NCBI GenBank assembly: GCA_038260455.1
Contig: JBBSNU010000001.1
Coordinates: forward strand, 1 to 59,586
Length of the DNA: 59,586 nt
Source of the DNA: Chroococcales cyanobacterium
GTDB taxonomy: Bacteria > Cyanobacteriota > Cyanobacteriia > Cyanobacteriales > Microcoleaceae
Reading direction: 5' to 3'
The position numbers and the translations under genes were made by a program. The notes below the pieces were generated by a model, which saw nothing but the letters and a program-made list of their open reading frames with translations, had not been told where the DNA came from and did no database searches. Below, piece after piece: positions 19,372 through 56,684 of this stretch; position 1 is the first letter of the stretch, and the number at the start of each line of letters is the position of its first letter.

Positions 19372-20289
19372 TTAGTCCTTATCTAATTCTTTGTGCCGTT
19401 CGCCTGTGCAAAGCCAATAAATCGGAGCAACTAAGCCAAATGGCCGCCAGCGTTTCGGGTCTTTAATCACAGAACTCGTGCCGTCGCGATCGCGCTTGAG
19501 CCTTGTTGAATTTGGTTCTGGATACCTACTCCCCAACATTCCAAAAGCAGAAGTAGTAAAGTAATCTACTTGACCGCCTCCCATTTGTTCCCACCCTTGC
19601 AATTTCCTAAAAGTTTGAGGAAAACGAGCTTGCGCTAATACTCTTGGCTTGTGCCGACTCACCCACAATTCACACTGTTCGCACTTCGTCATTACAAAGG
19701 CTATGCGCCGTTGGTTGCTGCTAATATCGGTGCGATCTAGAGCCATTAAAAACTTATCCAGACCGTTAGCATACTCAGAATCTTTGCGGTGAGTCGTGCC
19801 ATCTACGAGCAACATAATTCCCGTTGATCTCACGCAATCTTCTAGGTAGTCTACTAGCAGCGAATCTCCGGTTCTGTGGAGGAGGTCGCTAAAAAATTCA
19901 CCTGCATAGTCTTTGCAGCTTATGTTTAACTTGACAAGCTGTGGTTGCAAGGTTACTTTTGGCGTTTTCCAGGTAAATTCCCCTTTAAGAACAATACTTA
20001 AGGTGTAATCTTTGATATCATCAACACTTGCAAGAGCAGTTGCTTCAAGCTGTAGCCCTTGCTCCAAGATATTTTGAGCTTTAGCAACCAGTTCGTTGGC
20101 ATCATCGTTAATAGGCGTGACAGTTTGAACAGGACTAGAAGTATTGGCATTGGGCCAATAAGCTAGCGATGCCATGTAAGCAGTTTTGCCAGAAGCGCGA
20201 TCGCCAATCACTCGAACTTCAGCGCTGCGATCGAGCGGTTCTGAATTACTAGAAGTTTTGGTTTTATTTTGACTTAGCCAATCCAGCAT
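19372..20289 (-). CDS. TRAFAC-like P-loop GTPase (3rd of tandem trio)
   Basis: G1 GDRASGKT, G3 DYAGE, G4 TKCE, G5-like TSAFG. Confidence 0.82.
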   Translation of the reverse strand: MLDWLSQNKTKTSSNSEPLDRSAEVRVIGDRASGKTAYMASLAYWPNANTSSPVQTVTPINDDANELVAKAQNILEQGLQLEATALASVDDIKDYTLSIVLKGEFTWKTPKVTLQPQLVKLNISCKDYAGEFFSDLLHRTGDSLLVDYLEDCVRSTGIMLLVDGTTHRKDSEYANGLDKFLMALDRTDISSNQRRIAFVMTKCEQCELWVSRHKPRVLAQARFPQTFRKLQGWEQMGGGQVDYFTTSAFGMLGSRYPEPNSTRLKRDRDGTSSVIKDPKRWRPFGLVAPIYWLCTGERHKELDKD

Positions 20290-21126
20290 TTACTTGACCT
20301 TTCCTTTTGCTTTAGTTGTTTTACCAAGCCAATAAAGAGGCTCAATCATGTTGTAAGGTTGCCAGCGGGGGGCTTCTCTTAAAACTGAGGCCTTGCCTGA
20401 TTTTCCTTTTTCATCTGTGCGATTTGGTCTGGGGTCAGTTCGGCGTAATACACCAAATGTAGAAATTGCATAGAATCGGAGATTTCGGGGCGCGATTTTA
20501 TCGCGCAAAATATCTTTTGTTCTGGGGAGATGCAATCCAAATAAGTCTGTTTCTGGGTCAAGTCGTCCGGGCCAAAGTTCCCCTCTTTCACACTTACTCA
20601 TTGCCACTGCTAGGCGTAAGTCATTGGCGCGATCGTGAGAATCTATTAATTCTATAAACCGACTCATTACTCGGCTATAAAAACTGTCATCTGCTTTGTC
20701 CCAAGCCGTTAGGAGAATTAAACACCCTCCTACATCTTTCATTAAACATTCGTTAATAAACTCTTCATAAATATTATCCGATATAGTTGGGTCAGCTATT
20801 TTTTCAAATACCTCCCCTGGATAATCTCTAACGTTGAGTTGAAATGACTCTTGATTCGCCAACCAATGTTTTTTGATTTCCAAGTTAAAAGAGTAGTACG
20901 GCAAATCATCAACCGTTTGAATTTCTCGCCCAATGACTGTTGGCTCTACAGAGTCTCCCTGACAAATAATATTTTCAGCTAGATCTGCCAACTTTCTCGA
21001 ATCATCATTTAATGGGACAAGATTAAAATCTTTTGACTTTCCCATTGTTCGTTTTTTGTAGGCTAAGGCAGCTAGATAAGTTGTTTTCCCTGATGCTCTT
21101 GGCCCAATAATGCAAATATTTCCCAT
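20290..21126 (-). CDS. TRAFAC-like P-loop GTPase (2nd of tandem trio)
   Basis: G1 GPRASGKT, G3 DYPGE, G4 SKCE, ISTFG. Confidence 0.82.
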   Translation of the reverse strand: MGNICIIGPRASGKTTYLAALAYKKRTMGKSKDFNLVPLNDDSRKLADLAENIICQGDSVEPTVIGREIQTVDDLPYYSFNLEIKKHWLANQESFQLNVRDYPGEVFEKIADPTISDNIYEEFINECLMKDVGGCLILLTAWDKADDSFYSRVMSRFIELIDSHDRANDLRLAVAMSKCERGELWPGRLDPETDLFGLHLPRTKDILRDKIAPRNLRFYAISTFGVLRRTDPRPNRTDEKGKSGKASVLREAPRWQPYNMIEPLYWLGKTTKAKGKVK

Positions 21127-21139
21127 GATTTTTACTCCT

Positions 21140-21904
21140 TTACTTGGCTAAAAAGCTCGCTAAATAAATCCAAGGAAGTTCTAATAAAGACCGATTGTGA
21201 ATGCTAGTAATAAAGCAACGAACTGATAAGCCGGATACAGTTTTATTGATTTGCTCTATTTGTGGTTGTAGGGGTCGAAAGTATCGTTGAAAGACATAGG
21301 CATCTCGTTGTTGCCAATTCAACTTAGAGCGGTGAGGAATATACGCTAATTTAGAAACATCCACATCAAAATCACAAAATAGATCTGCTTTATTTAAGCA
21401 AATGATTAAATGTCTGACTTGCTTGCAATCGTAGCGAAAAAATTCTACCCACCGATTAAACCTATTACACCATTGCTGTTCAGTAATAAAATCATCAGGA
21501 TTTACATCTGCACCAGGCTTGATAATTTCTCGATATGGTTCAAGTATTAGCAAAATTCCCTCGCTTTTTAGAATAGTTTCTAAAAAATTATTCCATTCAT
21601 TTGGGTTTGCTAATTGCCAACTTTTTCGCCATATTTCCCCCGGCGTATCTATCCAATCTAAAGTAATTTGCTTGTGACCACTAGGAATTTCTACTTTAAT
21701 TTCTAAACTACGATTGTGAGTAGATGACACTGCATCTGTGGCTTTTGTACTCTCTAATTCATTATCATAGAGCATTGCTTTGAGAATTTCATAATCAGGA
21801 TAAGTAACTTTGACGTAGTTACTTTTTGGGTTGGCTAACTCCATCGCTAAATGGGTTTTGCCGGCAGCACGATCGCCAATATAAATCACCCCCATTGTTA
21901 TCAC
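21140..21904 (-). CDS. TRAFAC-like P-loop GTPase (1st of tandem trio)
   Basis: G1 GDRAAGKT, G3 DTPGE, G4 NKAD, TSI. Confidence 0.85.
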   Translation of the reverse strand: MITMGVIYIGDRAAGKTHLAMELANPKSNYVKVTYPDYEILKAMLYDNELESTKATDAVSSTHNRSLEIKVEIPSGHKQITLDWIDTPGEIWRKSWQLANPNEWNNFLETILKSEGILLILEPYREIIKPGADVNPDDFITEQQWCNRFNRWVEFFRYDCKQVRHLIICLNKADLFCDFDVDVSKLAYIPHRSKLNWQQRDAYVFQRYFRPLQPQIEQINKTVSGLSVRCFITSIHNRSLLELPWIYLASFLAK

Positions 21905-21907
21905 CTC

Positions 21908-23485
21908 CTACTGTGCTAAATAATCTGTTAAAAAAGGTTTAGTTGTTGGCGTATGCGAAGTATTCATCCGCACGATCGCACTTTGTCCACTCGGCAGTGC
22001 AGCCAAAGGCCGATTGCTAATCTCCCAAACTCCCAAAACAGGAACTCGTTCGTAGTTGATACTTCTTTGATGGAAGGGACTGGGGCCAACCCCCCCTTGA
22101 GCTACAGTCATACTTATCACCTGCCTTTGATATTCACCTAACGGTTTACTCAGCCACTCTGCTGTTTTGTGACTCACTCCTTGTAAAAAGATTTGCGTTC
22201 GACAGTTGTTGAGTGCTGGCAGAGTTTTTTCTGGAAATTGGTCTATTGATTGGCACATCAAAAAAATGCTTGCTTTCGCATTGCGGCCAATGGCCGTTAG
22301 TTCTTCATAGTTAATATTTTCCAATCTAGGAGCTTCATCGCAGATGATATAAGTCGGAGTCCAGCTATGACTGGGATTTTTCATCCGGCGGTACATCACA
22401 TTCATCACATAGGTAATCATCACCGCTGCCAAAGCAGAGCCAAATTTTCCGTCTGCTAGCGATTGACCAACTACTAAAGCGATCCGAGAAGTGCCATTCA
22501 AAGCTTTTAATAGAAAAATTCCGCTGGCACCGTCGCAAATTTTTCTCACTCTTGGGTCTTTGAAAGGACTGAGTTTATTTTGTAAAAAGCTAATATCTAG
22601 CCCAAATCTGCTATCGGGAAGAGTTAGATAAGAATAAAGGTCTGAACCCCACTGAGAATTAGCTTGCGGTAAATTATCTAACAAACCTTGCACGGCATCT
22701 CTGTCCATAATAAGAGCAGATAAATCGCTTGGGTCAAGTTTGATTAAATTTTGTCGTCTCGCTTCCACAACAACTCCTAAAATGGCACTCAGCCACAGGA
22801 TGTCTCGCTTCCAAAAAGCAGAGTTCGGGTCTGTGTCGTTAAATTGGCCGTAGAGTGCTTGGGCGATCGCCCTAATTTCGTTCTCAGTCCCAAATTTTTC
22901 CAACTCCTCCAAAAAGTTCCAAACAACTAAGTTTTTAGTCCCGCTCAAGTCCCAACAAACTAACTTTGACCCCGCACTGCGAGCCATCCCCGAAAGGCGA
23001 TCGCCCAAAAAACCCGCAGCATCAACGCAAACCAGATTACCCTTAGACATCAAGTTACCAGCAGACTTCAACAGCAGTTCCGTTTTACCTGAACCCGTTG
23101 CCCCCGCAATCAAAACGTGTTGATGTAAAGACTCGTTAGGAATCCAAAGGTCAGTTGTCAATCTAGCTTGACCGCGCCTAAAATTTACATAATTACCCAG
23201 CCAAAAATCACCATTTTTACCATCACCATGTGCTAAATTTTTTACTTCTTTGCTACTGGCTGTTTGCGAATAATCAAAAAGCTCTTGATATCTCACAGAA
23301 GGTTTAAGAGACTCCCCCGGGCCAATAATTAGAAGAGCTTTACTATTGGCAGCAGCACCGACGGACTTGAAACTTTCATGAAATATCCAGCCGAACATTT
23401 TGAAAATTTGTCTGGCAAAAAACCCTAAAACTTTCAGGTAGAGTTGGATTATCCACCAAAAAACACCAAAAAGAAATTGCTCCAT
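21908..23485 (-). CDS. VirD4/TraD-like coupling ATPase (FtsK/HerA superfamily)
   Basis: N-terminal hydrophobic segment, HVLIAGATGSGKT, SAFW motif, Walker B IICDEA, GRN...CQSIDQ, NNCRTQIF, TAEWLSK. Start MEQF at 23485 with AAGGA RBS. Confidence 0.85.
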   Translation of the reverse strand: MEQFLFGVFWWIIQLYLKVLGFFARQIFKMFGWIFHESFKSVGAAANSKALLIIGPGESLKPSVRYQELFDYSQTASSKEVKNLAHGDGKNGDFWLGNYVNFRRGQARLTTDLWIPNESLHQHVLIAGATGSGKTELLLKSAGNLMSKGNLVCVDAAGFLGDRLSGMARSAGSKLVCWDLSGTKNLVVWNFLEELEKFGTENEIRAIAQALYGQFNDTDPNSAFWKRDILWLSAILGVVVEARRQNLIKLDPSDLSALIMDRDAVQGLLDNLPQANSQWGSDLYSYLTLPDSRFGLDISFLQNKLSPFKDPRVRKICDGASGIFLLKALNGTSRIALVVGQSLADGKFGSALAAVMITYVMNVMYRRMKNPSHSWTPTYIICDEAPRLENINYEELTAIGRNAKASIFLMCQSIDQFPEKTLPALNNCRTQIFLQGVSHKTAEWLSKPLGEYQRQVISMTVAQGGVGPSPFHQRSINYERVPVLGVWEISNRPLAALPSGQSAIVRMNTSHTPTTKPFLTDYLAQ

Positions 23486-23518
23486 TTTATGTTCCTTTAG
23501 CAATGCAGCGCGATCGGA

Positions 23519-36973: not shown

Positions 36974-37690
36974 ATGGATGATGCGTCGTTGTGCCTATTG
37001 ATTCAAGAAGCCTTGCACGATCCTAACAGGGTTGAGGCACTAGCACTGGCGATCGACCAGTTGCCAGAAGTTAAGAGATATCTCGGCCCAGGTTGGCAAC
37101 CCTATTACGATCGAGCTTTGCCAACAACACAAAAAGATGTCCAGAGGAACATTAATAAATTTCCTCAAATGTATAAATTGAATATGGGAGATGTTAATCA
37201 CAAAAATACATCGAATTCTGCTCAGGTTCGGAAATACTTTATTAACTGGGTGGTGATGATTCTCGAAAAAGATTGCCATGATGTTAAGCGCAAAAAACGT
37301 CCAATTATTGTTAGCACGGACACTCCCATAGGAAAAGATGGCTTAACAATTGAAGAAACAATAGATAGCCGTCAAACTTGGAACCTAAACGATATCCCTA
37401 CCCTTGATGATTTAGATATTATAATAGCTGAAGAAGAGTTTGTAGAAAATCAAAAAAAGGTAGCGTTAATCCAGAGTTTGCTAGAAGAAAAATTATCAAA
37501 CTGCTATCCGGCTGGATGCCCCCAAGGAAATTGTTATGAATTAGTCCAAAGGAGGCTATTGAGAACACCACCGCAACAATGGCAAAATATTTCCAAAGAA
37601 TTACAAACCCCTTACGGAACTGTTACTGCTCACTGGAATAGAAAATGTAAACCGCTCCTAAGTCAAATCGAGCAAAATCTATCATTGTAA
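36974..37690 (+). CDS. Divergent sigma-70-like (HetZ-related) protein
   Basis: Region-2-like FINWVVMILEKDCHD, STDTPIG linker, C-terminal HTH WQNISKELQTPYGTVTAHWNRKCKPLL; directly upstream of DUF1822. Confidence 0.7.
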   Translation: MDDASLCLLIQEALHDPNRVEALALAIDQLPEVKRYLGPGWQPYYDRALPTTQKDVQRNINKFPQMYKLNMGDVNHKNTSNSAQVRKYFINWVVMILEKDCHDVKRKKRPIIVSTDTPIGKDGLTIEETIDSRQTWNLNDIPTLDDLDIIIAEEEFVENQKKVALIQSLLEEKLSNCYPAGCPQGNCYELVQRRLLRTPPQQWQNISKELQTPYGTVTAHWNRKCKPLLSQIEQNLSL

Positions 37691-37707
37691 TCAAAGGAGT
37701 TAAAACG

Positions 37708-38985
37708 ATGACAACTACAGCAAACATTTCTTTAAATATTCAGTTAACCAAGCAAGCGCATGGAGATGGTCGTACATTTGCATCTAAGCAATGCAGTCAA
37801 GAAAAAGCTAAACAAGTTTACCTGAATACGCTAGCAGTTTATGCTGTTAGTAATTTCCTGGAATGGCTGAATATAGAAACAGATTTAGCCGCCGGAGACA
37901 GTTGGAATTCGGTGATTAGACTATTCAATGATGTCGCAGATTTAGTTATTCCTAATTTGGGTAAACTGGAATGCCGTCCTGTTTTGCCAGGAGAAACTGT
38001 TATTACTTTACCTCCAGAAGTAACTGAGGACAGAATTTGCTATATTGCAGTTCAGTTTCAGGAACAATTGAACGAAGTGCAGCTATTGGGATTTATGCCT
38101 GCTTTAGATCCAGAAGAGCCTTTGTCACAAATTGAAATCGCCAATCTTCAACCCATAGAAAACTTAATTGACTACCTCGATCGCCTAGAATCAGCCCAAG
38201 ATTTTTTACACAGCGATGATGAAGTGGCTATCAAAGTAAGAAAAAGATTAAATACCGAGTCTTTCTCTGAAATTGTAGCTCAAATCGAACGAATTGTTCG
38301 GACTTGCAAACCATATAACTGGCGCTATGCTGGCGGGGATTTTTTAGCTAACTACGTTAATCCAGAACAGGGAATAGCTTTCAGAAGTGCTCCATCTCGT
38401 TCTGAGCGAGACGAATCTAATCGATCGCCAAACAGTGATTTACAAGATTTGGCTGAGAAATTGCTAGACAAGTTGAGTGAAATTTGGGGTATACAAAACG
38501 AAGAGGAAAATTCTGTTTGGATTGACTTGAGCGAATGGTTCCAAAATTCGGAAATTTTACTTAGGTATAATTTCCAAACTCTTGAATCTTTTTTGCTCGA
38601 ACAGGAAGAAAGTTTAGTATTTCGATTCGCGACTACACCCCGATCGCGCCAAGGAGCAACTGATGACAGTCTAGCAAATATTACGGGGGTGCAGCCAATA
38701 CAACTGCAAGAACACGCTTTAGCTTTGGCTGTGTGTTTGCAACTAGGAACAGACCATAAAACGGATGTACTTCTACGATTGTATCCTGCGGGAGAGAGTA
38801 CATATCTACCTAGTGGTTTGCAATTGATTGTCATAGATAGTGAATCTGGGGAGATGTTCTTGGAAGCTCAAGCGCGAAGTGCTGATAATTGGATTCAATT
38901 AGAGTTCCGAGGTGAACCCGGAGAACGCTTTAATGTTAAGGTAGCGCTTGGTGATTTGAGTGTTACGGATAATTTCGTGATTTAA
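37708..38985 (+). CDS. DUF1822 family protein
   Basis: KAKQVYLNTLAVYAV, GKLECRPV, YIAVQF; C-terminus ARSADNWIQLEFRGEPGERFNVKVALGD...FVI. Confidence 0.88.
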   Translation: MTTTANISLNIQLTKQAHGDGRTFASKQCSQEKAKQVYLNTLAVYAVSNFLEWLNIETDLAAGDSWNSVIRLFNDVADLVIPNLGKLECRPVLPGETVITLPPEVTEDRICYIAVQFQEQLNEVQLLGFMPALDPEEPLSQIEIANLQPIENLIDYLDRLESAQDFLHSDDEVAIKVRKRLNTESFSEIVAQIERIVRTCKPYNWRYAGGDFLANYVNPEQGIAFRSAPSRSERDESNRSPNSDLQDLAEKLLDKLSEIWGIQNEEENSVWIDLSEWFQNSEILLRYNFQTLESFLLEQEESLVFRFATTPRSRQGATDDSLANITGVQPIQLQEHALALAVCLQLGTDHKTDVLLRLYPAGESTYLPSGLQLIVIDSESGEMFLEAQARSADNWIQLEFRGEPGERFNVKVALGDLSVTDNFVI

Positions 38986-43237: not shown

Positions 43238-44842
43238 ATGAGCATATCGAAATTTTGCAGGTTCTTTCGCGGCCCTAATTGGGTGACAGACAAACGATTA
43301 GAAGAAAATTTAGACTACTTACAGAAGCAAGGCCGCGATCTGAATGATGAAATCGGCTTGCTGCGATATTTCTGTGAAGCTGTCCTGCTGCATTCAGACT
43401 CCTTAGCATTGCGACATTTATCGGCTTATTTGGAATCAGCTTGTGTATCTGCGGCTTGGAAACTCCACCAAAAAGATAACACACAAGAGTACACTTTGTT
43501 GGACTTTGTACAAATAGCCAGACTTCGCTTGTCAGAACCCACACTGATTAAAAATCAACAGGGCGTTGAACGAGAAGTTCCTTATTTTGTCAGTTTGTGT
43601 TTGAAGTATGACCCCGCTCAAGGTAAAATCACGACTTACGCCTATTTGAAACTTCGTTCTGCGATTGTATCAAAGGTGTACAAAAATCAGCAAACCCAAC
43701 GATTATCCGGTTGGGCTTTGTTGAAAAAAACTGGAAAATCAACTCTCACAACCGCCTTAAAACAAGGTGGAACTCCTGATGCCAAAATTAAACGTTGCTT
43801 AAATTGCTTGCAAGCATTTCATGCAGTTTACGGTAAATTCACCGTTGGTAAAAATTGTATATTGACTGAACCAACCGAAGCACAATGGATGGCAATCTGT
43901 CAATATTTATATGAACAAAATTTAGCGGTGAATCTTCCCGAAGTGAAGAATCTGTTAAACACCTGCGTTGAGGTATTGCGAGCTCGTGATAAAATCCAAA
44001 TCACCGCCTTGGATGGCGTGGATGAGACAGCGCAGGAAAGGCAACAATTAGAAATTGTTGAACAGTGGGAAACTCAACTGTTAGACTCGGAAGAAAAACA
44101 GGAGTTATTGACACAGGATGAAGAATTGATGGATTGTGTAGGAAGGGCGATCGCGACAATTCCTAAAAAGAAACCTCAAAAAGGTAAACTATCGATCGAT
44201 CCGCGCCAAGTCCTAATTTTATCTTACGCTTTACCCGGATTAACCGAGACTAAAATCGCTGCTTTGTTTGCGGTAAATCAATCAACCATTTCTCGTTATT
44301 TACACGGATACAAAACCTCGATTCTCAAAAGTTTGGCTGGCTGGCTTCATAGTGAACGAGGTTGGGAATTAACGACACAAAAAATTGATACTCTGTCTGA
44401 ACAATTAGAATTTTGGTTAAAATCCTATTGCAGAAGTCGGGTTGTCTACTGTTTTTTGCGGCAAGGTTTGAAATATCATCCTGAGTTGAGAAACAATCTG
44501 AACTTATTGTCAAATCATTTTGGCAATTTACCCGAAAAAACTTGGGCTAAAGCCAACAGTTTAGAACGGTATTTCAAGCCATCAGAATTAAGTGAGCAAT
44601 TGTCTTACTTAAATCAAGCGGCGCGTCCACAGTGCACAGAAATGCCAGATCAAGCTAAGTTGGAAGCCGCCAAAGCTAAGTTACATCAACAATTAACAAT
44701 TTGGCTGCAACAAACTTTGGGTTTAAAGGACTGTGATTTAAGTGCGATCGCTCGCCCTTCGAGTTTATTGATTGACTGTTTTCTGTATCAAGCTGACTAC
44801 GCCCTTTTACAACAAGAACGGAGATCAAACCATGCTATCTAG
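43238..44842 (+). CDS. Large divergent sigma-70-like (HetZ-related) protein
   Basis: HLSAYLESAC, region-2-like KYDPAQGKITTYAY, SGWALLK, region-4 HTH LTETKIAALFAVNQSTISRY; overlaps the DUF1822 start. Confidence 0.75.
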   Translation: MSISKFCRFFRGPNWVTDKRLEENLDYLQKQGRDLNDEIGLLRYFCEAVLLHSDSLALRHLSAYLESACVSAAWKLHQKDNTQEYTLLDFVQIARLRLSEPTLIKNQQGVEREVPYFVSLCLKYDPAQGKITTYAYLKLRSAIVSKVYKNQQTQRLSGWALLKKTGKSTLTTALKQGGTPDAKIKRCLNCLQAFHAVYGKFTVGKNCILTEPTEAQWMAICQYLYEQNLAVNLPEVKNLLNTCVEVLRARDKIQITALDGVDETAQERQQLEIVEQWETQLLDSEEKQELLTQDEELMDCVGRAIATIPKKKPQKGKLSIDPRQVLILSYALPGLTETKIAALFAVNQSTISRYLHGYKTSILKSLAGWLHSERGWELTTQKIDTLSEQLEFWLKSYCRSRVVYCFLRQGLKYHPELRNNLNLLSNHFGNLPEKTWAKANSLERYFKPSELSEQLSYLNQAARPQCTEMPDQAKLEAAKAKLHQQLTIWLQQTLGLKDCDLSAIARPSSLLIDCFLYQADYALLQQERRSNHAI

Positions 44843-46031
44843 CTTAGAACAATTACGACTCGCTTTTCCAAATCATTTATGGGTTGAGTTGACATCGGAA
44901 GAGTTGCGTAAATCTTTGCCATCTGCTGAAAAATTTTCCCACGAAGCAGCGGTTTATCGTGCTTATTTGAATCAGCTTTGTATCGATTATTTATTACCAT
45001 TATTTCCTGAAATTGCCAATGTGGAAGCATCACCGAAGATTGCCGCCCCATCCCAGAGGAATAGTTTGTGGGAATTGATTAATGGAACTGCGATCGAATT
45101 TTGCGGTCATCGTTTGATTATTATTCCCAGTGAAAGCATTGATGTGGATGAATTTGTCATTGAACAAGAATGGGTAGATATTCCCGAATTAGCCGGGGAT
45201 TATTATTTGGCGGTGCAGGTAAATTTAGAGGATGGATGGTTGCGAGTGTGCGGTTTTACCACCCATCGGAAGCTGAAAACAGAGGGGAGATATGATACGG
45301 GCGATCGCACTTATGCTCTAGATTCAGAGGAATTATTTGAAAATATCAATACTCTGTGGGTTTCCCAGGAACTTTGTAAGGCCGAAAAAGCAGAGATTCC
45401 ACCGTTACCAAGTTTATCTAGCAGCCAAGTAGAAAGGTTAATGGCAGAATTAGCTAAACCTTCACTTTATTCCCCGCGTTTGAAAGTGCCTTTTCCCCAG
45501 TGGGCGGCGCTTGTAGCTGCTGATAATTGGCGGCAGCAACTTTATAATCGCCGTATTGGCAAAGAATCGGTGGTGGAAAAATTGGTAAATTTGAGTCAGA
45601 ATATTTTTTCAGAATTGTGGTTGATGGCGAATGAATTGGTGCTAAGCTATGGGATTAATCTGGCTGTAGCGAGGAGTGGATCTCGTTCTGGAGACGCTGA
45701 GGGCGATCGACCTTTTCAAATGCGGGGAAGAATGATTGATTTGGGAATTCAATTATTTGGTAAACCTGTAGCATTAATTGTCTATTTCACACCAGAATCG
45801 GAGAATAAATGGAATATCCTTTTGCAGATTAAACCCGGTGGGGGGCAAACGTACTTGCCGCCAGATGTGGAACTGATTGTGTTGGATGATACTGGTGAGG
45901 TGTTTCTGGAAGCGCGATCTAGAAGTGCGGATAATTGGATTCAGTTGGAGTTTCGGGGTGAGCCTAGGGAACGGTTCAGTGTTAAAGTGGCTTTAGGTGA
46001 TGCCAATATTATTGAAAATTTCGTTATCTAA
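44832..46031 (+). CDS. DUF1822 family protein
   Basis: RAYLNQLC, QEWVDIPELAGDYYLAVQV, SPRL; C-terminus SRSADNWIQLEFRGEPRERFSVKVALGD...FVI. Start MLSS with GGAG RBS. Confidence 0.88.
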   Translation: MLSSLEQLRLAFPNHLWVELTSEELRKSLPSAEKFSHEAAVYRAYLNQLCIDYLLPLFPEIANVEASPKIAAPSQRNSLWELINGTAIEFCGHRLIIIPSESIDVDEFVIEQEWVDIPELAGDYYLAVQVNLEDGWLRVCGFTTHRKLKTEGRYDTGDRTYALDSEELFENINTLWVSQELCKAEKAEIPPLPSLSSSQVERLMAELAKPSLYSPRLKVPFPQWAALVAADNWRQQLYNRRIGKESVVEKLVNLSQNIFSELWLMANELVLSYGINLAVARSGSRSGDAEGDRPFQMRGRMIDLGIQLFGKPVALIVYFTPESENKWNILLQIKPGGGQTYLPPDVELIVLDDTGEVFLEARSRSADNWIQLEFRGEPRERFSVKVALGDANIIENFVI

Positions 46032-49420: not shown

Positions 49421-49558
49421 TCCGTCATCATATCATTACAGCGAATCCCGATCGCCCTCCCGAACTTTTCCCCCATCCGCATAACCATCCGCCTCACCCC
49501 CGATAAAGCAATAGCAGGCAAAAACCAGAGAGTCCAATTCAGTATTCCCCAGCAACCC

Positions 49559-49587
49559 TGCATAAAACCACAAACCCTTCACGACTA
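49559..49587 (+). promoter_or_regulatory. Putative alternative-sigma promoter, copy 8
   Basis: TGCATAA-N16-CGACTA upstream of 49616. Confidence 0.7.
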
Positions 49588-49615: not shown

Positions 49616-50158
49616 ATGACTCAGCAAGTAGATCTCAACGAAGTCAGAAACCGCGTGCTCAGCAACCAGCAAAGCGACACAGACTTGCCCAATTCAACGG
49701 ATCGCAGCGTTTTCGTAGACTCCGAAGGCAACATCATCCTGCGGCCCCAAGCAGGTACCGAACGTCAACTCTCCCGCGTTCCCCAGAAAACCTTCGCCAC
49801 CAGTCTCACAATCGATCGCCAAACCGTTGCTCAAAAACTCCCCAACAACACCCAGGAAATGTCCGTCAGCGGCGTTACAGGCTGGACATACAGCATTGTC
49901 AGCGAACTCGGCGACCAGTACACCATGTTTGCTTACAGCGACGGCAGCCTATACCAAGTGATGGTTTTGTTCCCAGCAGTCGCCGGCAAATTCAATGTCC
50001 ACGATGCCCACCTGTTTAGCGATGGTCGCATCTGCTTCGGCGATGGAGGCGGCTTGCCTACATTAGAACAAGCCTTTGCTAAATCAGTCCTTTGGGCAAC
50101 AGGCTTCAGCAGTTACCTGCGTACCGGGTTGTTCCCCTTTTCCATCAACAACCTCTAA
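49616..50158 (+). CDS. E2 (ubiquitin-conjugating)-like protein with ~60-aa N-terminal extension
   Basis: HLFSDGRICFG matches the E2 HxxxxGxIC active-site pattern (Cys140); GAGG RBS; adjacent to a JAB/E1 gene. Confidence 0.7.
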   Translation: MTQQVDLNEVRNRVLSNQQSDTDLPNSTDRSVFVDSEGNIILRPQAGTERQLSRVPQKTFATSLTIDRQTVAQKLPNNTQEMSVSGVTGWTYSIVSELGDQYTMFAYSDGSLYQVMVLFPAVAGKFNVHDAHLFSDGRICFGDGGGLPTLEQAFAKSVLWATGFSSYLRTGLFPFSINNL

Positions 50159-50168
50159 AAGGGCGATC

Positions 50169-50270
50169 GGGCAACCACAGGGGGTTTGCCCCTACCAGCG
50201 ATCAAAGAAACCGGGTTTTTACCGAATCTGTCGGCTACAACCAAATATTTTCGTAAAAAACCCGGTTTCT
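50169..50270. repeat. Composite intergenic repeats (GGGCAACCACAGGGGGTTTGCCCCTAC + AGAAACCGGG element)
   Basis: Hairpin 50169-50195; AGAAACCGGGTTTTTAC...GTAAAAAACCCGGTTTCT 50206-50270. Confidence 0.8.
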
Positions 50271-50345
50271 GGGCCCCCATCACCTGCCGACAAGGCATAC
50301 AAAACCTTGCCCTTTACCTGCCAACAATTATTTCAATTAACAACC

Positions 50346-52241
50346 ATGATGCTGTACATTTCAGAATCAGTTCTGCACGAAATTCAGACTGCGATTTCAG
50401 ACCATCCGCCCGAACGCGGAGGAGCCATTCTAGGGCCTGTGGGTCAGCCCATAATCACCCACTTTCTCTTAGACGAAGAAGCCCATACCAGCGGTGCTAG
50501 CTACCTTCCGTCTCCGCAATTAACTCAGCGGGTGCAGCAGCTAGAAATGATGGAAAGACTAGAGTTTAAAGGCGTAATTCACTCGCACCCCGGCGGCTTA
50601 GACCGGCCTTCCGGCCCCGATGAAACTGCCATGCTCGAAGGGCTGAATCTCAACCCTCACATCCCCTATTTTGTAGCTCCGATTGTCACTTTACAACGTC
50701 CTTGGGGACACTTGCGCGAACACGAATTGTTCCTCGGTCAAGGTAAAATTTCCTGCTATGTTGCTTACCGCGATCGCAACAAATTGCGAGTGGAAACGAT
50801 CGCGGTTAACAAAGTGTGCGATCGCGAATTGTCGCGCATTTTGCAAACCCTAGAACCAACAGCCTCGCGATCGCCCAAACGGATACCGCTACAAGCTGAC
50901 TTAGAGCGACTTTGCCAGACTTTTGGCAGCACTCAACCGCCCACAGTCTTTATGACAGAGGTGGAAGGGCGAACCATCCCCGCTGGCATCGTTATCCTGA
51001 ATGGTGGCTTAGAATTACTATTCCTGGTCAGTGAATCCTATCCCGTCACACCACCGATCGTCATGGTGACACAGCCGGGGGAAGATACCGAAGCACTGCA
51101 ACTTCCTTGGTCGCTGTCAACGCCCGCAGAGGAACGTCTGTTAATTGCAGTCAAAAGTGCGATCGCAGGTGAGGGCCCTTACCGGAAGGTGTACGGCCCT
51201 TTGGGAAAGTCTCCGGTGACAGCAGACGGCGATCGCGCGTGTTTGGCTGGTTGGAGTGGTTGCTATTCGGACGCTGACCCCCAGATAGCCGCCAATGAAG
51301 TGCAGCAGGGGCTATTTGCTCGCAGCCAAGGGCTTCTCAGCCAACATTTGACCAAAAAACGGGTTTTAGTCGTTGGCACGGGTTCTGTGGGCTCCTACAT
51401 GGCTGAATTGTTAGTCCGCAGCGGTTTAGGCGCGATCGCACTTATTGACCCTGAAACGGTGGAAGCAGCGAATTTGTGCCGCACGACTTACGATTTGACT
51501 GATTTGGGTCGTCCGAAAGTGGAGGCGATCGCACGGCGACTGCTCAATATTAACCCGCTGCTGGATGTAACATTGCAGGCAAAGAGTCTGATGGACTTCG
51601 ATGTCGCAGAATTCGAGGCGAGGGTGCAGGAGGCGGATTTGGTAGTGGCCGCCACTGATGACACAGCAGCACAGCGTATTATCAACCGTTTCGCCTATTT
51701 TCACGGCAAACCGACTCTGTTTGTGGGGCTCTACCGGGGTGCGGAAGGGGGAGAGGTGATTTTTACGATTCCCGATCGCACTCCCTGCTATCTTTGTGCT
51801 ACGGCCAACCGCCACAAGGCTGAATCGGATTTGGGACGGGTGAGTGCGGATGCGGATTACGGCAGCAATGGTCGTGTGATGGGTGAAGTTGCGATCGCAG
51901 CGGACATTCACCATGTTACCAGCGCGGCGGTGAAAATCGCTCTGTCGCTGCTGTTGCCGGAGGATGCTGAAGCGAAACTCAAGGGTTTCTTGAATCGGGC
52001 GATCGATGGGGGTTTAAATTATCTCACGCTTTCGATGGTTCCGAATTACTGGTTCTATCCCAATGTGTTTGGAGATACGCCGGGACAGTATGCTTATCAA
52101 ACCGTTTGGCTTACGGCAAAGTCTGGCGAAGAGTGTCCTGTGTGTGGTGGCGTACACCATCGGGTTGAGCCGCGCACTGTACCGTTGCGGGAGTTTCAGG
52201 CGGATGATGTTCGCGCTGCTTTGAATCTTACCGCTTCCTAG
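50346..52241 (+). CDS. JAB/MPN peptidase - E2-like - ThiF/E1 fusion protein
   Basis: ERGG...HSHPGGLDRPSGPD (JAMM); SYPVTPPIV (UBC-fold-like); VVGTGSVGS, DPETVEAANLCR, ATDD, PCYLC, CPVCG. Start MMLYIS at 50346. Confidence 0.88.
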   Translation: MMLYISESVLHEIQTAISDHPPERGGAILGPVGQPIITHFLLDEEAHTSGASYLPSPQLTQRVQQLEMMERLEFKGVIHSHPGGLDRPSGPDETAMLEGLNLNPHIPYFVAPIVTLQRPWGHLREHELFLGQGKISCYVAYRDRNKLRVETIAVNKVCDRELSRILQTLEPTASRSPKRIPLQADLERLCQTFGSTQPPTVFMTEVEGRTIPAGIVILNGGLELLFLVSESYPVTPPIVMVTQPGEDTEALQLPWSLSTPAEERLLIAVKSAIAGEGPYRKVYGPLGKSPVTADGDRACLAGWSGCYSDADPQIAANEVQQGLFARSQGLLSQHLTKKRVLVVGTGSVGSYMAELLVRSGLGAIALIDPETVEAANLCRTTYDLTDLGRPKVEAIARRLLNINPLLDVTLQAKSLMDFDVAEFEARVQEADLVVAATDDTAAQRIINRFAYFHGKPTLFVGLYRGAEGGEVIFTIPDRTPCYLCATANRHKAESDLGRVSADADYGSNGRVMGEVAIAADIHHVTSAAVKIALSLLLPEDAEAKLKGFLNRAIDGGLNYLTLSMVPNYWFYPNVFGDTPGQYAYQTVWLTAKSGEECPVCGGVHHRVEPRTVPLREFQADDVRAALNLTAS

Positions 52242-52269
52242 GGCGAAACTAGAGATTGATGCGATCGCG

Positions 52270-52306
52270 CCCAGGGGAAGAAATGCTTTCCTCTGGGTCT
52301 GTTTTT
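52270..52306 (+). terminator. Putative intrinsic terminator
   Basis: CCCAGGGGAAG-loop-TTTCCTCTGGG stem followed by TCTGTTTTT after the E1 stop. Confidence 0.55.
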
Positions 52307-52384
52307 ATCTGGTACTGTAGAGGTTTGAGGGGAATCCTCGGAATATGGGTAAAAAGGGCGATCGGCGCTTATAAAAGTTGATCT

Positions 52385-54256
52385 ATGGGAAAATTAATTG
52401 TTATCGGATTGGATGGGACTTTCAAGATAGGTTTTCGAGTTTCCCTGCGAATTGCGGAAGATGGCAAGCCACATCACAATGAGCTAATTGCCAGTTTACC
52501 TCCAGATCCAGAACTTGACAAGTTTTATGAAGACTTGAAACAAGAAGGGTTTAAGCCTTATATGAAGAAGAAATACTATCCTTCATCAAGTTCATTCAAA
52601 AACCTTCTGAATCCTTGGATGACCTCTTCACAATTTCTTGAAAAATGGGACAGATTAAAAACAGATTGCACGTCTCAGGATATTATTCGAGTTATTCTCC
52701 AACCTTCCGACTCCGATTTGGCAAAGCTTCCCTGGCATCTCTGGAATTTTTTTGAAAATTACCCTCTAGCCGAAATAGCCTTTAGTTTGCCAGAATACAA
52801 AATTCAACCTTGTTATTCAACTAGAACGGAAGTCAGAATTATAGCAATACTGGGAGATAGTACAGGAATTGACACTACCGTAGATGAACGAGAATTCAAA
52901 CAATTGTCGCCCCAAACCTTATTTTTGCCAGAAAAAGACCAGGAAACTATTTTTCGGCACTTGAGGGATGAAGAGTCCTGGGACATCTTGTTTTTTGCAG
53001 GTCATAGTAAAACTTCAAATGAAGAAGGTATTATTTATATCAATCAAACAGATAATATCAGAATTAATGACTTAGAAAATGCAGTAAAACAAGCCATTGG
53101 CAAAGGATTGAAGCTGGCTATTTTTAATTCCTGCGATGGCTTGGGTTTAGCAAAAACTTTAGCCAGTTGGAACCTTCCCCAAGTTATCGTCATGCGTCAA
53201 CCAATTCCCGATGAAGTCGCGCACAAATTTTTGAAGTTTTTTCTAGAAGCTTTTGTGAAAAGCAAAATTGTTATTAATGGCAAAACTTATGATAAAACTT
53301 TATATTTAGCCCTGCGGGAAGCCAGGGAAAATCTCCAAGGATTAGAAGGAAAGTATCCTCTAGCCAGTTGGTTGCCAGTGATGTATGACCAGAGTTTTGC
53401 TGCTGAACCTTCCCCAACTTGGAAACAGTTAAACAAAACTGATTCGGATTCCCAAGCATCAGCTAATTCAATCGTTACTAAACAAAATAACGACAAATTT
53501 CACGAAGCATTACTGCGGTTAAATTACAAACAGCAAGTTAAACTATTCCGAACTGTTGTCGAATCAAAACCCATCATTGCTTGGTTGATTCATGGCGAAG
53601 AAGAAAGCGGTCAAAAATGGCTATTGAATCGGTTGATCAAGTTTGTTCCTGATTCCACAACAGCCAAAATTGTTCCAGTGAATCTCAGCCGTAAGTCTCG
53701 TGCTACCTATACAAAAGCTTTGTGGCGAGAACTGGGAGGTCGAGTTGGTTTGATGAATCAACCTTTACCTGCACTAATTGTAGATAAAGTCTCTCAATGG
53801 TGTCAAAATCAAACAGTAGTTTTAATTTTTGATGACCTCCATGAGATGCCAGAGGAATGTATGAGTGAATTTATTAGCGAATTTTGGTTGCCCTTGGTAA
53901 CAAAGGTACGCAGCCTAACTGAGTTCAAGCCTCGATTACTAATGTTTTTAATTGACCATAGTGGTTGTGTTGAAGAGTGGAATGTAGATTTTGCTGATAA
54001 ACTAGATATCGACTGGGAACCCCACATCCCTGTTAAACTGCCCAAAATTACTAAACTGTGCGAACAAGATTTGACATCTTGGATTGAAAATTCTCTGGAT
54101 GACTTGCCCCTTAAATTGAGTAATCAAGTTGAGGAAATAGTCCGAGACATCCTCGAAAGCAGCGAGGGTGGTTTGCCTCAAGGAGCACTACACAGAATTT
54201 GCGAATTGTGCGATTATGATTGGTATGAGAGGGAAACAACATGGCTGAAATACTGA
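52385..54256 (+). CDS. CHAT protease fused to inactive STAND (iSTAND) domain
   Basis: FAGHS and NSCDG; LLRLNYKQQ, degenerate Walker A HGEEESGQKWL, VLIFDDL, EFWLPLV; directly upstream of MoxR. Confidence 0.85.
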   Translation: MGKLIVIGLDGTFKIGFRVSLRIAEDGKPHHNELIASLPPDPELDKFYEDLKQEGFKPYMKKKYYPSSSSFKNLLNPWMTSSQFLEKWDRLKTDCTSQDIIRVILQPSDSDLAKLPWHLWNFFENYPLAEIAFSLPEYKIQPCYSTRTEVRIIAILGDSTGIDTTVDEREFKQLSPQTLFLPEKDQETIFRHLRDEESWDILFFAGHSKTSNEEGIIYINQTDNIRINDLENAVKQAIGKGLKLAIFNSCDGLGLAKTLASWNLPQVIVMRQPIPDEVAHKFLKFFLEAFVKSKIVINGKTYDKTLYLALREARENLQGLEGKYPLASWLPVMYDQSFAAEPSPTWKQLNKTDSDSQASANSIVTKQNNDKFHEALLRLNYKQQVKLFRTVVESKPIIAWLIHGEEESGQKWLLNRLIKFVPDSTTAKIVPVNLSRKSRATYTKALWRELGGRVGLMNQPLPALIVDKVSQWCQNQTVVLIFDDLHEMPEECMSEFISEFWLPLVTKVRSLTEFKPRLLMFLIDHSGCVEEWNVDFADKLDIDWEPHIPVKLPKITKLCEQDLTSWIENSLDDLPLKLSNQVEEIVRDILESSEGGLPQGALHRICELCDYDWYERETTWLKY

Positions 54257-55182
54257 ATAGAGAAGGACTGAGATACACAGGTGAGGTACAGCCTCAACCA
54301 GGAGAAATAGATGAAAATGGTCAACTGCTTTATCCTTATCTTCCTGAACCGGATTTAGTTGAAGCTGTTAACTTAGCAATTCAATTAGAACGCCCGTTGC
54401 TAATTAAGGGAGAACCAGGTTGCGGTAAAACTCGATTAGCCCGCGCTGTTGCGTATGAATTGGGACTGCCCTATGAAGCTTGGAATATTAAGTCTACAAG
54501 CAGGGGAAAAGATGGACTTTATACCTATGATGCCGTGGGGCGTTTGCGGGATGCCCAATTAGCCGCAGCAGGCCGCCTCAGTGATGACAAAATTCAGGAA
54601 ATTGACCAGCCTGAGACTTATATTAAATGGGGGTCATTGGGGCGTGCTTTTCTTAATGAACAAACCACCGTGGTGCTCATTGATGAAATAGATAAGGCTG
54701 ATATTGACTTTCCTAATGATTTGCTCTTAGAACTCGATGAACAGCGGTTTGTGATTGAGGAGACGGGAGAAAAAAAGCAGGCTAAGGCTGTACCGATTGT
54801 GTTTATTACTAGCAATGATGAGAAAGATTTACCCGATGCTTTCTTGCGACGCTGTTTATTTCACTTTCTTGAATTTCCCAAACGTCAGCAGTTAATTGAG
54901 ATTATCAATGCTCATTTTACAGCTTCTCCAGAAAAATTAGTGAATGCGATTATCGATCGCTTTTTGGAGTTGCGTGAAGAGATGCGGAAAGATAAGGGAG
55001 AATCTGGTAAAAAAGTTAGTACCAGTGAATTGATGGATTGGTTTCGGGTGTTGCGTCACTATCCTGAAGATAAAGTTTTAACTGAGTTACCTCAAAAACT
55101 TTTATATCCGGGCGTGTTGCTGAAGAGTTGGGATGATTACAATCGCTATGCCAAAGAAAGGCGTATTGGGGGTAGCTTATGA
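54241..55182 (+). CDS. MoxR-family AAA+ ATPase
   Basis: RPLLIKGEPGCGKT, YDAVGRLRDAQ, LIDEIDKADIDFPNDLL, ITSNDEKDLPDAFLRRC. Confidence 0.93.
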   Translation: MAEILNREGLRYTGEVQPQPGEIDENGQLLYPYLPEPDLVEAVNLAIQLERPLLIKGEPGCGKTRLARAVAYELGLPYEAWNIKSTSRGKDGLYTYDAVGRLRDAQLAAAGRLSDDKIQEIDQPETYIKWGSLGRAFLNEQTTVVLIDEIDKADIDFPNDLLLELDEQRFVIEETGEKKQAKAVPIVFITSNDEKDLPDAFLRRCLFHFLEFPKRQQLIEIINAHFTASPEKLVNAIIDRFLELREEMRKDKGESGKKVSTSELMDWFRVLRHYPEDKVLTELPQKLLYPGVLLKSWDDYNRYAKERRIGGSL

Positions 55183-56684
55183 TTAGACATCAGAGTTTTG
55201 AAGGACTTTTAGAAATTACCATTGATCAAGCACTGGCAATTGTAGAGTATGTAATGAATGACGAGCATTTGAACGAACTTCAAGAAATTGTCTTTCGTCT
55301 GTCTTGGGAAAGAAAATCTTATCAGGAAATAGCCCAATTCACCGGCATTGCACCGAATTATATCAGGGATGTTGGATCTCAACTCTGGAATCAACTTTCA
55401 ACATCATTTGGCGAACAGGTTGGAAAAGCTAATTTTCAATCAGTCATCAAGCGATACTTAAAGCGAAATCAAGTAATTGTCAATCGCAATCAGGCTATTG
55501 GAGATATCCCAAAATTATTAGAGGGTAGGCAAGATGCCTGCCCACCCGATGCTTTTATGCAGACCTCTATTGTTGATGAACTTCCACTGATTGAGCTTTT
55601 TACTCAACTGCGGGAGGCAGGTTTTTTGCTAGGTATCAGCGAATATAAGCTGTTGCTGCAAGCTTTACACAAGGGGTTTGGAACGATAAATCGCGATTCT
55701 TTATACCGCTTATGTAAAACTCTGTGGGTAAAATCGGATGAAGATAAGCGCCTGTTTGACTATCACTTTGAAATAATTATCAAAGACAGTCAGGAAACAG
55801 CATCAGCCATCCCCGAAGAACAAGATATTTCGCAAAAAACCGAGAATTATGATACAATCGAAACAGCAACCGCGACAACTGAACTAACTACTGAAACTGT
55901 AATTCATGCCCCGCAGCCTGAGTTAACAGCAGCAATAGAAGATGAAGTGCAAGCTGCTAAGGCGGTGATGCAAGCTACGAATGCTGATGAGCAGATTTCT
56001 TACAAAAATTTCATCCTGACATCGGAATATTTTCCGGTGACGCGGCGACAGATGAAGCAGAGTTGGCGTTATTTACGCCGTCCCGTGCGAGAAGGGCCGC
56101 TGGTAGAATTAAATGTGGAAGCTACAGTTAACCAGATTGGGAGACAGGGGATTTTATTGAGTCCGGTAATGATGCCGCGCCGGGTAAATCAGTCGGAATT
56201 ACTATTATTAATCGATCGCGATGGTTCGATGGTTCCCTTTCACGATTTGTCAGAACGGTTAGCAGAAACAGCGGTGCGGGGTGGACGTTTAGGCAATGCT
56301 GGCATTTATTATTTTCACAATTGTCCGGTGGATTATCTCTACCGCGATCCCTATCATTTGGAAGCCGCAAAAATTGAGAACTTGTTGGCTAAATTGCGGC
56401 CTCAGAGGTGTGCTATCTTACTTTTTGGTGATGCTGGGGCGGCTCGCGGGGGTTATAGTGAAGATCGGGTGAAGTTGACGGCGTTGTTTCTCAAGCAGAT
56501 TAAGGCCAAAGTGCGGTATGTAGCTTGGCTGAATCCTATGCCGATGTCGCGCTGGGAAGGAACGACGGCGGGTGAGGTGGCGCGTTTGGTGCCGATGTTT
56601 GAGATGACGCGGGGGGGATTGCAAAATGCGATCGCCCTGTTACGCGGAAAGAGTCAGAATTCGGTTTTTGTCGGGACTGAGTAG
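55179..56684 (+). CDS. MoxR-associated vWA protein with N-terminal wHTH
   Basis: SYQEIAQ...VGSQLWNQLS...VGKANF HTH; LIDRDGSMVPF, DAGAARG, WLNPMP; ATGA overlap with moxR. Confidence 0.88.
   Translation: MIRHQSFEGLLEITIDQALAIVEYVMNDEHLNELQEIVFRLSWERKSYQEIAQFTGIAPNYIRDVGSQLWNQLSTSFGEQVGKANFQSVIKRYLKRNQVIVNRNQAIGDIPKLLEGRQDACPPDAFMQTSIVDELPLIELFTQLREAGFLLGISEYKLLLQALHKGFGTINRDSLYRLCKTLWVKSDEDKRLFDYHFEIIIKDSQETASAIPEEQDISQKTENYDTIETATATTELTTETVIHAPQPELTAAIEDEVQAAKAVMQATNADEQISYKNFILTSEYFPVTRRQMKQSWRYLRRPVREGPLVELNVEATVNQIGRQGILLSPVMMPRRVNQSELLLLIDRDGSMVPFHDLSERLAETAVRGGRLGNAGIYYFHNCPVDYLYRDPYHLEAAKIENLLAKLRPQRCAILLFGDAGAARGGYSEDRVKLTALFLKQIKAKVRYVAWLNPMPMSRWEGTTAGEVARLVPMFEMTRGGLQNAIALLRGKSQNSVFVGTE

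What the first reader, a model, noticed from the sequence alone, without database searches (positions are those of the whole stretch)
49616..52241. Two-gene ubiquitin-like conjugation system (E2 + JAB-E2-E1) with no Ubl and no CD-NTase
Seen: an E2-like protein with active-site Cys, then a single polypeptide holding a JAMM peptidase, a UBC-like segment and a ThiF/E1 domain. It has its own promoter copy and terminator. No beta-grasp/GG-ending protein or nucleotidyltransferase is recognisable nearby. Established: bacterial E1/E2/JAB sets act in CBASS (Cap2/Cap3) and Bil-type antiphage systems, with a CD-NTase or Ubl as the conjugated moiety. Inference: a distinct minimal system with an unknown modifier, induced by the island sigma factor.
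Basis: partly seen in the sequence, partly recalled or inferred. Interest (0 to 1): 0.82.

Follow-up and report, generated by a model that had tools for sequence, protein, structure and literature searches.

The report
Ubiquitin-style tagging with non-ubiquitin peptide tag
Two cyanobacterial genes encode ubiquitin-type enzymes whose seemingly missing tag is most likely the first 61 residues of the smaller protein, a non-ubiquitin peptide ending in Phe-Ala that the neighbouring protease is predicted to cut free and the other enzymes would then attach to target proteins, which would be a previously undescribed kind of bacterial protein tagging.

Summary
The two genes are real: a 180-aa protein with a Cys-type E2, and a 631-aa JAB / Cys-less E2-like / E1 fusion. 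Residues 1-61 of the small protein are a separate conserved module ending Phe-Ala. It accompanies the E2 in 116 of 116 adequately covered loci. It is also encoded alone, with a stop 0-4 codons after Phe-Ala (52 of 55 genes, against 10 of 110 in other frames), and as head-to-tail 2-3-mers, like polyubiquitin. A complex prediction puts its tail in the JAB groove (0.67, best control 0.00). It matched no Ubl family and is not predicted as a beta-grasp. The E1 crossover loop has no Cys and an invariant Tyr (68 of 68), at about the position of catalytic Tyr370 of Bub. The layout resembles Type I Bub, but tag, E2 nucleophile, extra domain and lack of BubE differ. The family is patchy across about nine phyla. 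I did not find it described in six answered searches on it. Conjugation, E1 binding, targets and antiphage role are untested; flanking genes give little support for defence outside cyanobacteria. Verdict: new variant of a known kind.

The parts
49479..49503 (+). Distal copy of island promoter-like motif GCATAA-N16-CGA
   Evidence: at least one copy within 260 nt upstream in 20 of 24 cyanobacterial loci (pattern allowing C or G before GA)
49560..49584 (+). Proximal copy of the same motif
49616..49798 (+). Predicted modifier, residues 1-61 of gene A: helix 7-19, short hairpin, extended tail ending Phe60-Ala61; predicted JAB cut after Ala61
   Evidence: stand-alone, fused and tandem forms; model; tail in JAB groove
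49799..50158 (+). E2 (UBC fold), His132 and catalytic-position Cys140 (codon 50033-50035)
50200..50282 (.). Dispersed inverted repeat between the genes; not specific to the system
   Evidence: 156 hits of 50 nt or more among 164 hits on 111 contigs of the own genome
50346..50825 (+). Gene B JAB/JAMM metallopeptidase domain (E23, H79, H81, S89, D92)
50883..51170 (+). Gene B Cys-less E2/RWD-like domain; predicted to bind the modifier's N-terminal helix
51279..52241 (+). Gene B ThiF/E1 adenylation domain with ATP motifs, two Zn-type CxxC pairs and invariant crossover-loop Tyr505 (codon 51858-51860); no crossover Cys
52269..52308 (+). Terminator-like hairpin with T-rich tail
   Evidence: not above chance alone; a similar hairpin follows the gene in L001, L002, L005, L006, L081

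Best explanation
The operon is most likely a self-contained protein-tagging system whose tag is the 61-residue non-ubiquitin module fused in front of the E2, which the JAB domain is predicted to release and the E1 and E2 would then attach to target proteins. Shown by sequence: the module, the Cys E2, intact JAMM and adenylation motifs, and a Tyr with no Cys in the E1 crossover loop. Step 1 (predicted, about 0.85): JAB cuts after Phe60-Ala61 while the inactive E2-like domain holds the tag's helix; in other lineages it trims a 1-4 residue cap or splits tandem copies. Step 2 (inferred): the E1 dimer adenylates the Ala61 carboxyl. Step 3 (inferred from Bub, about 0.6): Tyr505 forms an aryl ester and hands the tag to E2 Cys140 as a thioester; otherwise Cys140 attacks the adenylate directly. 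Step 4 (inferred): E2 transfers the tag to lysines without an E3, and JAB may reverse this. Role (weak, about 0.5): an inducible mark used in conflict or stress responses, in this genome under the island's alternative sigma factor, possibly read by AAA ATPases in other lineages.
For: The module co-occurs with the E2 in 116 of 116 loci with at least 400 nt on both sides, and no third gene family is shared across the loci. Of 105 distinct module copies in 143 loci, 57 are stand-alone, 47 fused to E2 and 1 fused to E1. Stand-alone genes stop 0-4 codons after the module in 52 of 55 cases (12 exactly at it) against 10 of 110 in the other frames; 34 of the 55 lie downstream of the E2, so they are not broken fusions. 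A profile search of 1.84 billion representatives gave 370 hits. Of the 150 listed, 14 were hairpin-only matches and were dropped; of the other 136, 67 are alone, 54 E2-fused, 3 fused to JAB or E1 and 12 other. 17 have 2-3 detected copies, several joined directly after F-A or F-Y, and 102 of 136 end Phe-Ala. The complex scored 0.67 against 0.00 for the best control; this mark was reached by 116 of 157 solved and 2 of 215 mismatched pairs (rough here, own alignments plus ATP); runs agree in at least 91% of contacts, partner pLDDT at least 59. Tag residues 50-61 contact JAB residues including H79, S89 and D92, with Phe60 touching D92 and Y53; helix 7-19 and the middle domain are also in the interface. 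68 of 68 distinct crossover loops have Asp/Asn-Tyr and no Cys. Tyr505 lies within about one residue of BubCD Tyr370, counted from the following helix. Precedents: JAB cleavage of BubAB and the need for Tyr370 (PMC11601596); a cGAS C-terminus ending Phe-Ala is adenylated by Cap2 and cut by Cap3 (10.1101/2022.03.31.486616).
Against: No biochemistry. The one complex job, with a single copy of gene B, placed the tail in JAB rather than in the E1 site, so nothing here ties the tag to E1 directly. The crossover loop is low confidence in the model (pLDDT under 50 at 498-516), and the profile-profile alignment to BubCD stopped at residue 488, before the Tyr; MAFFT did not put the two Tyr in one column. 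In Bub the Tyr serves a Ser E2; a Tyr-to-Cys relay has no precedent that I found. About a quarter of modules end otherwise (F-Y 10, F-H 6, others), which asks the E1 to accept bulky termini. Many loci are near-duplicates (Microcoleus, Anaeromyxobacter, freshwater metagenomes), so counts overstate independence. For defence: of 96 flanking proteins only generic AAA, HerA and sigma-54-type cross-hits and one MzaB matched PADLOC.
Confidence: 0.76

Rival explanations
1. Same tag, but no E1 covalent intermediate: E2 Cys140 attacks the tag-adenylate directly and Tyr505 only positions the substrate or the E2.
For: In Cap2 the E1 Cys was dispensable in vitro and the E2 Cys stood in (figure legend). No E1 Cys exists here. 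This is a variant of the best explanation and its probability is counted within it.
Against: Tyr is invariant at about the Bub catalytic position, and Y370F abolished Bub conjugation.
Confidence: 0.3
2. The module is not transferred. It is a pro-peptide, tether or pseudosubstrate inhibitor of the JAB domain, and the E1/E2 act on a substrate encoded elsewhere (host ThiS/MoaD, a CD-NTase or a phage protein).
For: The model docks it on JAB and the inactive E2, not on E1. It is also found fused to JAB or E1 N-termini.
Against: It is conserved when encoded alone and ends exactly at Phe-Ala in 12 of 55 such genes. Tandem precursors exist. No other candidate substrate travels with the operon.
Confidence: 0.11
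3. The module is a RiPP-like precursor: E1 activates its C-terminus (as MccB does) and E2 passes it to a small amine, lipid, nucleotide or its own N-terminus, giving a diffusible or cyclic product rather than a protein conjugate.
For: ThiF-family MccB and PaaA are among the sequence and structure neighbours. The peptide is small and poorly folded alone (Atlas model of stand-alone homologue P0226: pLDDT 0.47).
Against: No conserved exporter, immunity or tailoring gene. The whole module is conserved with no variable core. A JAB plus Cys E2 set is typical of conjugation systems (own knowledge).
Confidence: 0.09
4. Sulfur-carrier or cofactor pathway: the activated C-terminus becomes a thiocarboxylate.
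For: E1 folds like MoeB/ThiF (Z 26); JAB trimming of sulfur carriers is known (PMC1779556 passages).
Against: Scores are far below ThiF/MoeB equivalog cut-offs (97 vs 275 bits). The genome has a separate ThiF-family gene on contig C41 with the canonical loop Cys. An E2 is always present and no rhodanese or cofactor gene recurs.
Confidence: 0.03

Closest known systems
Type I Bub (formerly 6E.1; Ye et al., PMC11601596; read abstract, Results parts 1-2 of 3, Discussion and figure legends)
   Same: Tag-E2 fusion gene plus JAB-E1 fusion gene; JAB releases the tag; homodimeric-type E1 without catalytic Cys and with an invariant crossover Tyr; no E3.
   Different: Bub tag is 1-3 beta-grasp domains ending in Gly, its E2 uses Ser-His, and BubE (DUF6527) is always present. 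Here the tag is a 55-66 aa non-Ubl ending Phe-Ala, E2 has His/Cys, a Cys-less E2-like domain sits between JAB and E1, and no BubE was found. No profile similarity to BubA or BubB of a same-genus Bub locus (probability 0.3% and 0.1%, single-sequence templates).
Type II CBASS Cap2/Cap3 and the stand-alone CBASS E2 (10.1101/2022.03.31.486616, passages; PDB 7to3, 8hsb)
   Same: Non-beta-grasp substrate recognised by an extended tail; the E. cloacae cGAS tail also ends Phe-Ala; Cys E2 is the best fold match; PADLOC E1-E2 models are the best defence hits of gene B (E 4e-29).
   Different: No CD-NTase or effector. The tag is a short non-enzymatic peptide. The active E2 is on the tag gene, not fused to E1. 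E1 lacks the catalytic Cys.
Bil types I and II (Chambers et al., PMC10557695; read abstract, introduction and start of Results)
   Same: Complete E1/E2/JAB set with a Cys E2; JAB trims a pro-tag.
   Different: Bil uses a beta-grasp Ubl with C-terminal Gly, four genes, and an IAD-AAD-CYS E1 with catalytic Cys.
Ubl-conjugation module of FtsH ternary systems (Kaur et al. 2020, PMC7159879, passages)
   Same: Tag-E2 fusion predicted to be released by JAB, in multicellular-bacteria conflict islands such as this one (iSTAND-MoxR-vWA genes follow at 52385-56684).
   Different: True Ubl with EAD1, separate JAB and E1 genes, and a RING E3.
Pup (recalled, not from a call)
   Same: About 60-aa, largely unstructured bacterial tag with an interaction helix; AAA ATPase reader.
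   Different: Pup is ligated by PafA through a Glu side chain; no E1, E2 or JAB.

Membership tests
Type I Bub | Tag-E2 fusion and JAB-E1 fusion | tested here: met
   an extra E2-like domain lies inside the JAB-E1 fusion
Type I Bub | E1 crossover loop with invariant Tyr and no Cys | tested here: met
   68 of 68 loops; register within about one residue of Tyr370 by counting from the next helix
Type I Bub | Tag ends in conserved Gly | tested here: not met
   0 of 73 aligned modules end in Gly; 102 of 136 end Phe-Ala, 3 end in Gly
Type I Bub | Tag has beta-grasp fold | tested here: inconclusive
Type I Bub | E2 with catalytic Ser-His | tested here: not met
   His132/Cys140; His...Cys in 93 of 122 E2-like domains of the loci, 25 not matched by the pattern
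Type I Bub | BubE (DUF6527) in the operon | tested here: not met
   No match in window neighbours, own genome (74.6% complete) or 82 flanking proteins
Type II CBASS | CD-NTase and effector in the operon | tested here: not met
   10 window proteins; 82 flanking proteins; 96 flanking proteins
Type II CBASS | E2-E1 fusion with two catalytic Cys | tested here: not met
   Only four invariant Cys in gene B, as two CxxC pairs; none conserved in the middle domain
Bil I/II | Ubl with C-terminal Gly; IAD-AAD-CYS E1 | tested here: not met
   Single adenylation domain, no CYS insertion; GG-ending ORFs in 2 of 134 loci, both from one contig and low-complexity
E1/E2 protein conjugation systems in general | ATP-dependent covalent transfer of the tag to a target | not testable with these tools
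   needs biochemistry
Antiphage systems | Protection on phage challenge | not testable with these tools
   context only: conflict island here; little defence signal in other lineages
ThiF/MoeB sulfur relay | Equivalog score, GG carrier, cofactor gene context | tested here: not met

The most novel reading that the evidence does not exclude
An undescribed family of bacterial protein conjugation, spread over about nine phyla, in which E1/E2/JAB enzymes handle a Pup-sized, non-beta-grasp tag ending Phe-Ala, made as E2 fusions, capped monomers or polyubiquitin-like arrays, and pass it through a hybrid Tyr-ester (E1) to Cys-thioester (E2) relay, with a dedicated inactive E2 domain as tag receptor and AAA ATPases as readers in some lineages.
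Probability: 0.5. Interest if true: 0.88.

Novelty: new variant of a known kind. Interest (0 to 1): 0.8.

Why it matters
It would show that ubiquitin-type enzymes can use a dedicated tag that is neither a beta-grasp protein nor an enzyme, and that the ubiquitin precursor logic (fusion, cap, tandem array) arose on an unrelated peptide. It would link the Cys-based (CBASS, Bil) and Tyr/Ser-based (Bub) chemistries in one relay. At two genes and about 2.6 kb, with a predicted cut site and nucleophiles, it is directly testable and could serve as a compact orthogonal ligation tool. It also suggests that other 'Ubl-less' E1/E2/JAB operons hide their tag in a fusion.

Tried and rejected
Families for the module: no credible Pfam or NCBIfam match in 73 members. 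PDB profile hits are NHL-repeat hairpins only and the single-sequence search gave nothing. The ESM Atlas gave no usable feature hit and TM under 0.5 for homologue P0226. These blanks do not prove a new fold. Gene A alignment: no Prok-E2 or UBC Pfam hit in 67 members. The middle domain is not detectably similar to the system's own E2 (hhalign 0.1%). Stand-alone modules as sequencing errors: possible for a few (for example L071, in-frame stop) but not for the 34 lying downstream of E2. Sigma-70 consensus promoter: none. Plasmid and phage collections: no match for gene A; one viral-collection contig for gene B. Expression: contigs of four metatranscriptomes partly cover both genes at low depth; this does not show transcription, and I laid no silent control stretch. 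No E1 tree was built because only two Bub E1s were recovered. Earlier scan findings by sequence and place: none. Literature: searches did not return a description of this family, judged from listings and the papers cited; search 71 concerned the island sigma. Burroughs et al. 2011 (PMC5938088) was not held, subscription journals are not covered, and supplementary operon tables of the Aravind and Corbett papers were not seen and could list members. L062 is an unrelated E1 and was kept only as an outgroup.
Full report
Observation. The window is cyanobacterial; the closest named relatives are Microcoleus and Tychonema. Gene A (49616-50158) encodes 180 aa and gene B (ATG 50346-52241) 631 aa. Gene B has a JAB domain and a ThiF/E1 domain. 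In an alignment of 92 sequences (the query and 91 of the 120 listed homologues) the JAMM residues, the nucleotide-binding Gly motif, R326, D368, R379, K391, D438 and two CxxC pairs are invariant. Its middle domain has an alpha-beta-beta-beta-beta-alpha order with YPxxPP and no conserved Cys, with weak RWD/UBC matches. Gene A residues 62-180 model as a UBC fold, with the CBASS E2, Cap2 E2 and BubB among the top rows (Z 8.4, 7.1, 7.0; these Z values are middling). His132 and Cys140 are nearly invariant.

The missing modifier. Residues 1-61 of gene A are conserved separately, with consensus DLNxLR...VxVDxxGxI...LSEVxQxxFA. I fetched 143 loci and searched them with profiles of each domain. The module occurs in 116 of 116 loci whose E2 has 400 nt of context on both sides. 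Of 105 distinct copies, 57 are separate genes, 47 are fused to E2 and 1 to E1. The main gene orders are E2 | tag | JAB-iE2-E1 (26 loci, mostly Anaeromyxobacter), tag-E2 | JAB-iE2-E1 (25, as here), tag | E2 | JAB-iE2-E1 (19, plus 8 with two E2s) and JAB-iE2 | tag-E2 | E1 (about 10). Separate tag genes stop within four codons of the module's end in 52 of 55 cases, 12 of them immediately, against 10 of 110 in the other frames; 34 lie downstream of the E2. A profile search of 1.84 billion representatives found 370 proteins. Among the 150 listed, 14 hairpin-only matches were dropped; the other 136 show the same forms, including 17 with two or three copies, several joined directly after Phe-Ala or Phe-Tyr, and 102 end Phe-Ala. 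Exact ends, short caps, N-terminal fusions and head-to-tail arrays are the pattern of ubiquitin precursors (own knowledge). Loci are redundant, so these are not independent events, but record titles span lineages that I assign to about nine phyla. The system is rare: 4 of 301 genomes of the order, own genome included.

What the tag is. The model shows a helix (7-19), a short hairpin and an extended tail. No Ubl or other family matched credibly. It has no Cys, and 11 of 73 modules have no Lys, so lysine-linked chains are not a universal feature. A stand-alone homologue models poorly alone, so it may fold only when bound. I could not fold-search it alone, so 'not beta-grasp' rests on length, element order and the absence of profile matches.

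Processing. The complex prediction of gene B with the module scored 0.67 against 0.00 for the best of three controls (mark reached by 116 of 157 solved and 2 of 215 mismatched pairs; rough here; runs agree in at least 91% of contacts; partner pLDDT at least 59). Residues 50-61 lie along the JAB groove: Ser53-Val55 against the invariant N103 and neighbours 60, 63, 64, 99, and Phe60 against Y53 and the zinc ligand D92. The N-terminal helix and the middle domain (202-250) are also in the interface. This supports, but does not show, cleavage after Ala61 and a tag-binding role for the inactive E2. The run did not place the tail in the E1 site; it held one copy of an enzyme family that works as a dimer.

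Chemistry. All 68 distinct crossover loops that my pattern recovered lack Cys and contain Asp/Asn-Tyr. In Type I Bub the E1 likewise lacks Cys, Tyr370 is the only invariant loop residue, and Y370F abolishes conjugation (PMC11601596). A Bub locus from a same-genus genome (L148) aligns to the BubCD structure sequence (E 8e-45). Counting back from the post-loop helix puts Tyr505 within about one residue of Tyr370, though automatic alignments did not pair them. Bub hands the tag to an E2 Ser; here the E2 has Cys. A Tyr-ester to Cys-thioester hand-off is chemically reasonable because aryl esters exchange with thiols (own knowledge). Direct attack of the E2 Cys on the adenylate is the main alternative, with precedent in Cap2. 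Activation of a Phe-Ala terminus also has precedent: the E. cloacae cGAS tail ends this way, is adenylated by Cap2 and cut by Cap3.

Context and role. Here the operon sits between a sigma-like / DUF1822 / CHAT-NACHT set and an iSTAND-MoxR-vWA set, the latter a conflict system of multicellular bacteria (PMC7159879). A GCATAA-N16-CGA motif occurs 7 times in the window, each copy in front of a + strand ORF, including the sigma-like gene and twice before gene A, against 34 in the whole genome. It is present upstream in 20 of 24 cyanobacterial loci. Control by the island sigma is a fair inference. Elsewhere no third gene is universal. Among flanking proteins of at least 110 aa from a subset of loci there was no Ubl, CD-NTase or BubE (82 scanned with Pfam; 96 with PADLOC); Ubls under 110 aa were tested only by a GG-end scan. 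Defence hits were few and generic. One recurring neighbour is an AAA ATPase with one or two AAA modules, co-oriented with the operon, in 28 loci forming 10 clusters at 60% identity. A ClpB-like ATPase is fused to a Cys-less E2 paralogue in L049 and L108. This hints at a tag-then-remodel role, but is only a lead.

Comparison and verdict. It works like Type I Bub in layout and E1 type, and like CBASS in tail and E2 type, but fails membership of Bub (Gly end, Ser E2, BubE), CBASS (CD-NTase, two catalytic Cys) and Bil (Ubl, CYS domain). It also matches none of the operon types 6a-6e as described in PMC1779556 (passages). Six answered literature searches returned no description; unseen supplements and subscription papers may list members. 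Earlier notes of this scan propose other non-ubiquitin tags in other genomes (unchecked) but none with this sequence. I rate it a new variant of a known kind, interest 0.8: comparative evidence for the tag is strong, the mechanism is inferred, and the biological role is open.

Noticed in passing
window 28812, 34371, 35466, 42553, 43174, 49479, 49560 (+): GCATAA-N16-CGA motif before several island genes, including the sigma-70-like gene upstream of DUF1822; a candidate promoter consensus and regulon for this sigma family.
   Followed up: partly
L051, L056, L057, L074, L089-L139 subset; L049:3862-5235, L108:112-1470: AAA ATPases (AAA plus AAA_lid_6, usually two modules) adjoin the operon in actinobacterial, Bacillota and metagenomic loci; a ClpB-like AAA is fused to a Cys-less copy of the E2 in two loci. 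Possible readers of the tag.
   Followed up: partly
L013:4922-5416, L014:7810-8250, L030:7477-8742, L073:5298-6575: SH3-domain membrane proteins directly downstream begin with PxLExLR[RK], resembling the tag's N-terminal helix; possible docking motif or target.
   Followed up: no
L010:2445-3374, L016:4437-5204, L028:4975-5946, L092:1196-1792, L099:4322-5125: Second, Cys-less E2 paralogues, some fused to DUF1232; in L099 the tag is fused to the inactive copy and the active E2 is separate.
   Followed up: no
window 50200-50282: Dispersed inverted repeat with about 160 copies in the genome, abundant in metatranscriptome contigs.
   Followed up: partly
window 14889-23503 (-): Cluster with a vWA-like protein, a 717-aa protein, three tandem P-loop GTPase-like genes and a TraD-like ATPase, resembling a GTPase-centric ternary conflict system (family names recalled, not scanned).
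   Followed up: no
window 36974-38985 and 43238-46031: Two sigma-like plus DUF1822-like gene pairs followed by CHAT proteins; YbjN-like genes at 28077 and about 42570 (YbjN label recalled).
   Followed up: no
L148:3763-6446: Complete Bub operon in a same-genus genome with BubA and BubB as separate ORFs, next to an HTH and a metallopeptidase-like gene pair.
   Followed up: partly
G067 and G255: Gene A homologue has one in-frame TAG; in sibling Arthrospira-like loci it may only mark a shorter C-terminus. Not cut out to check.
   Followed up: no
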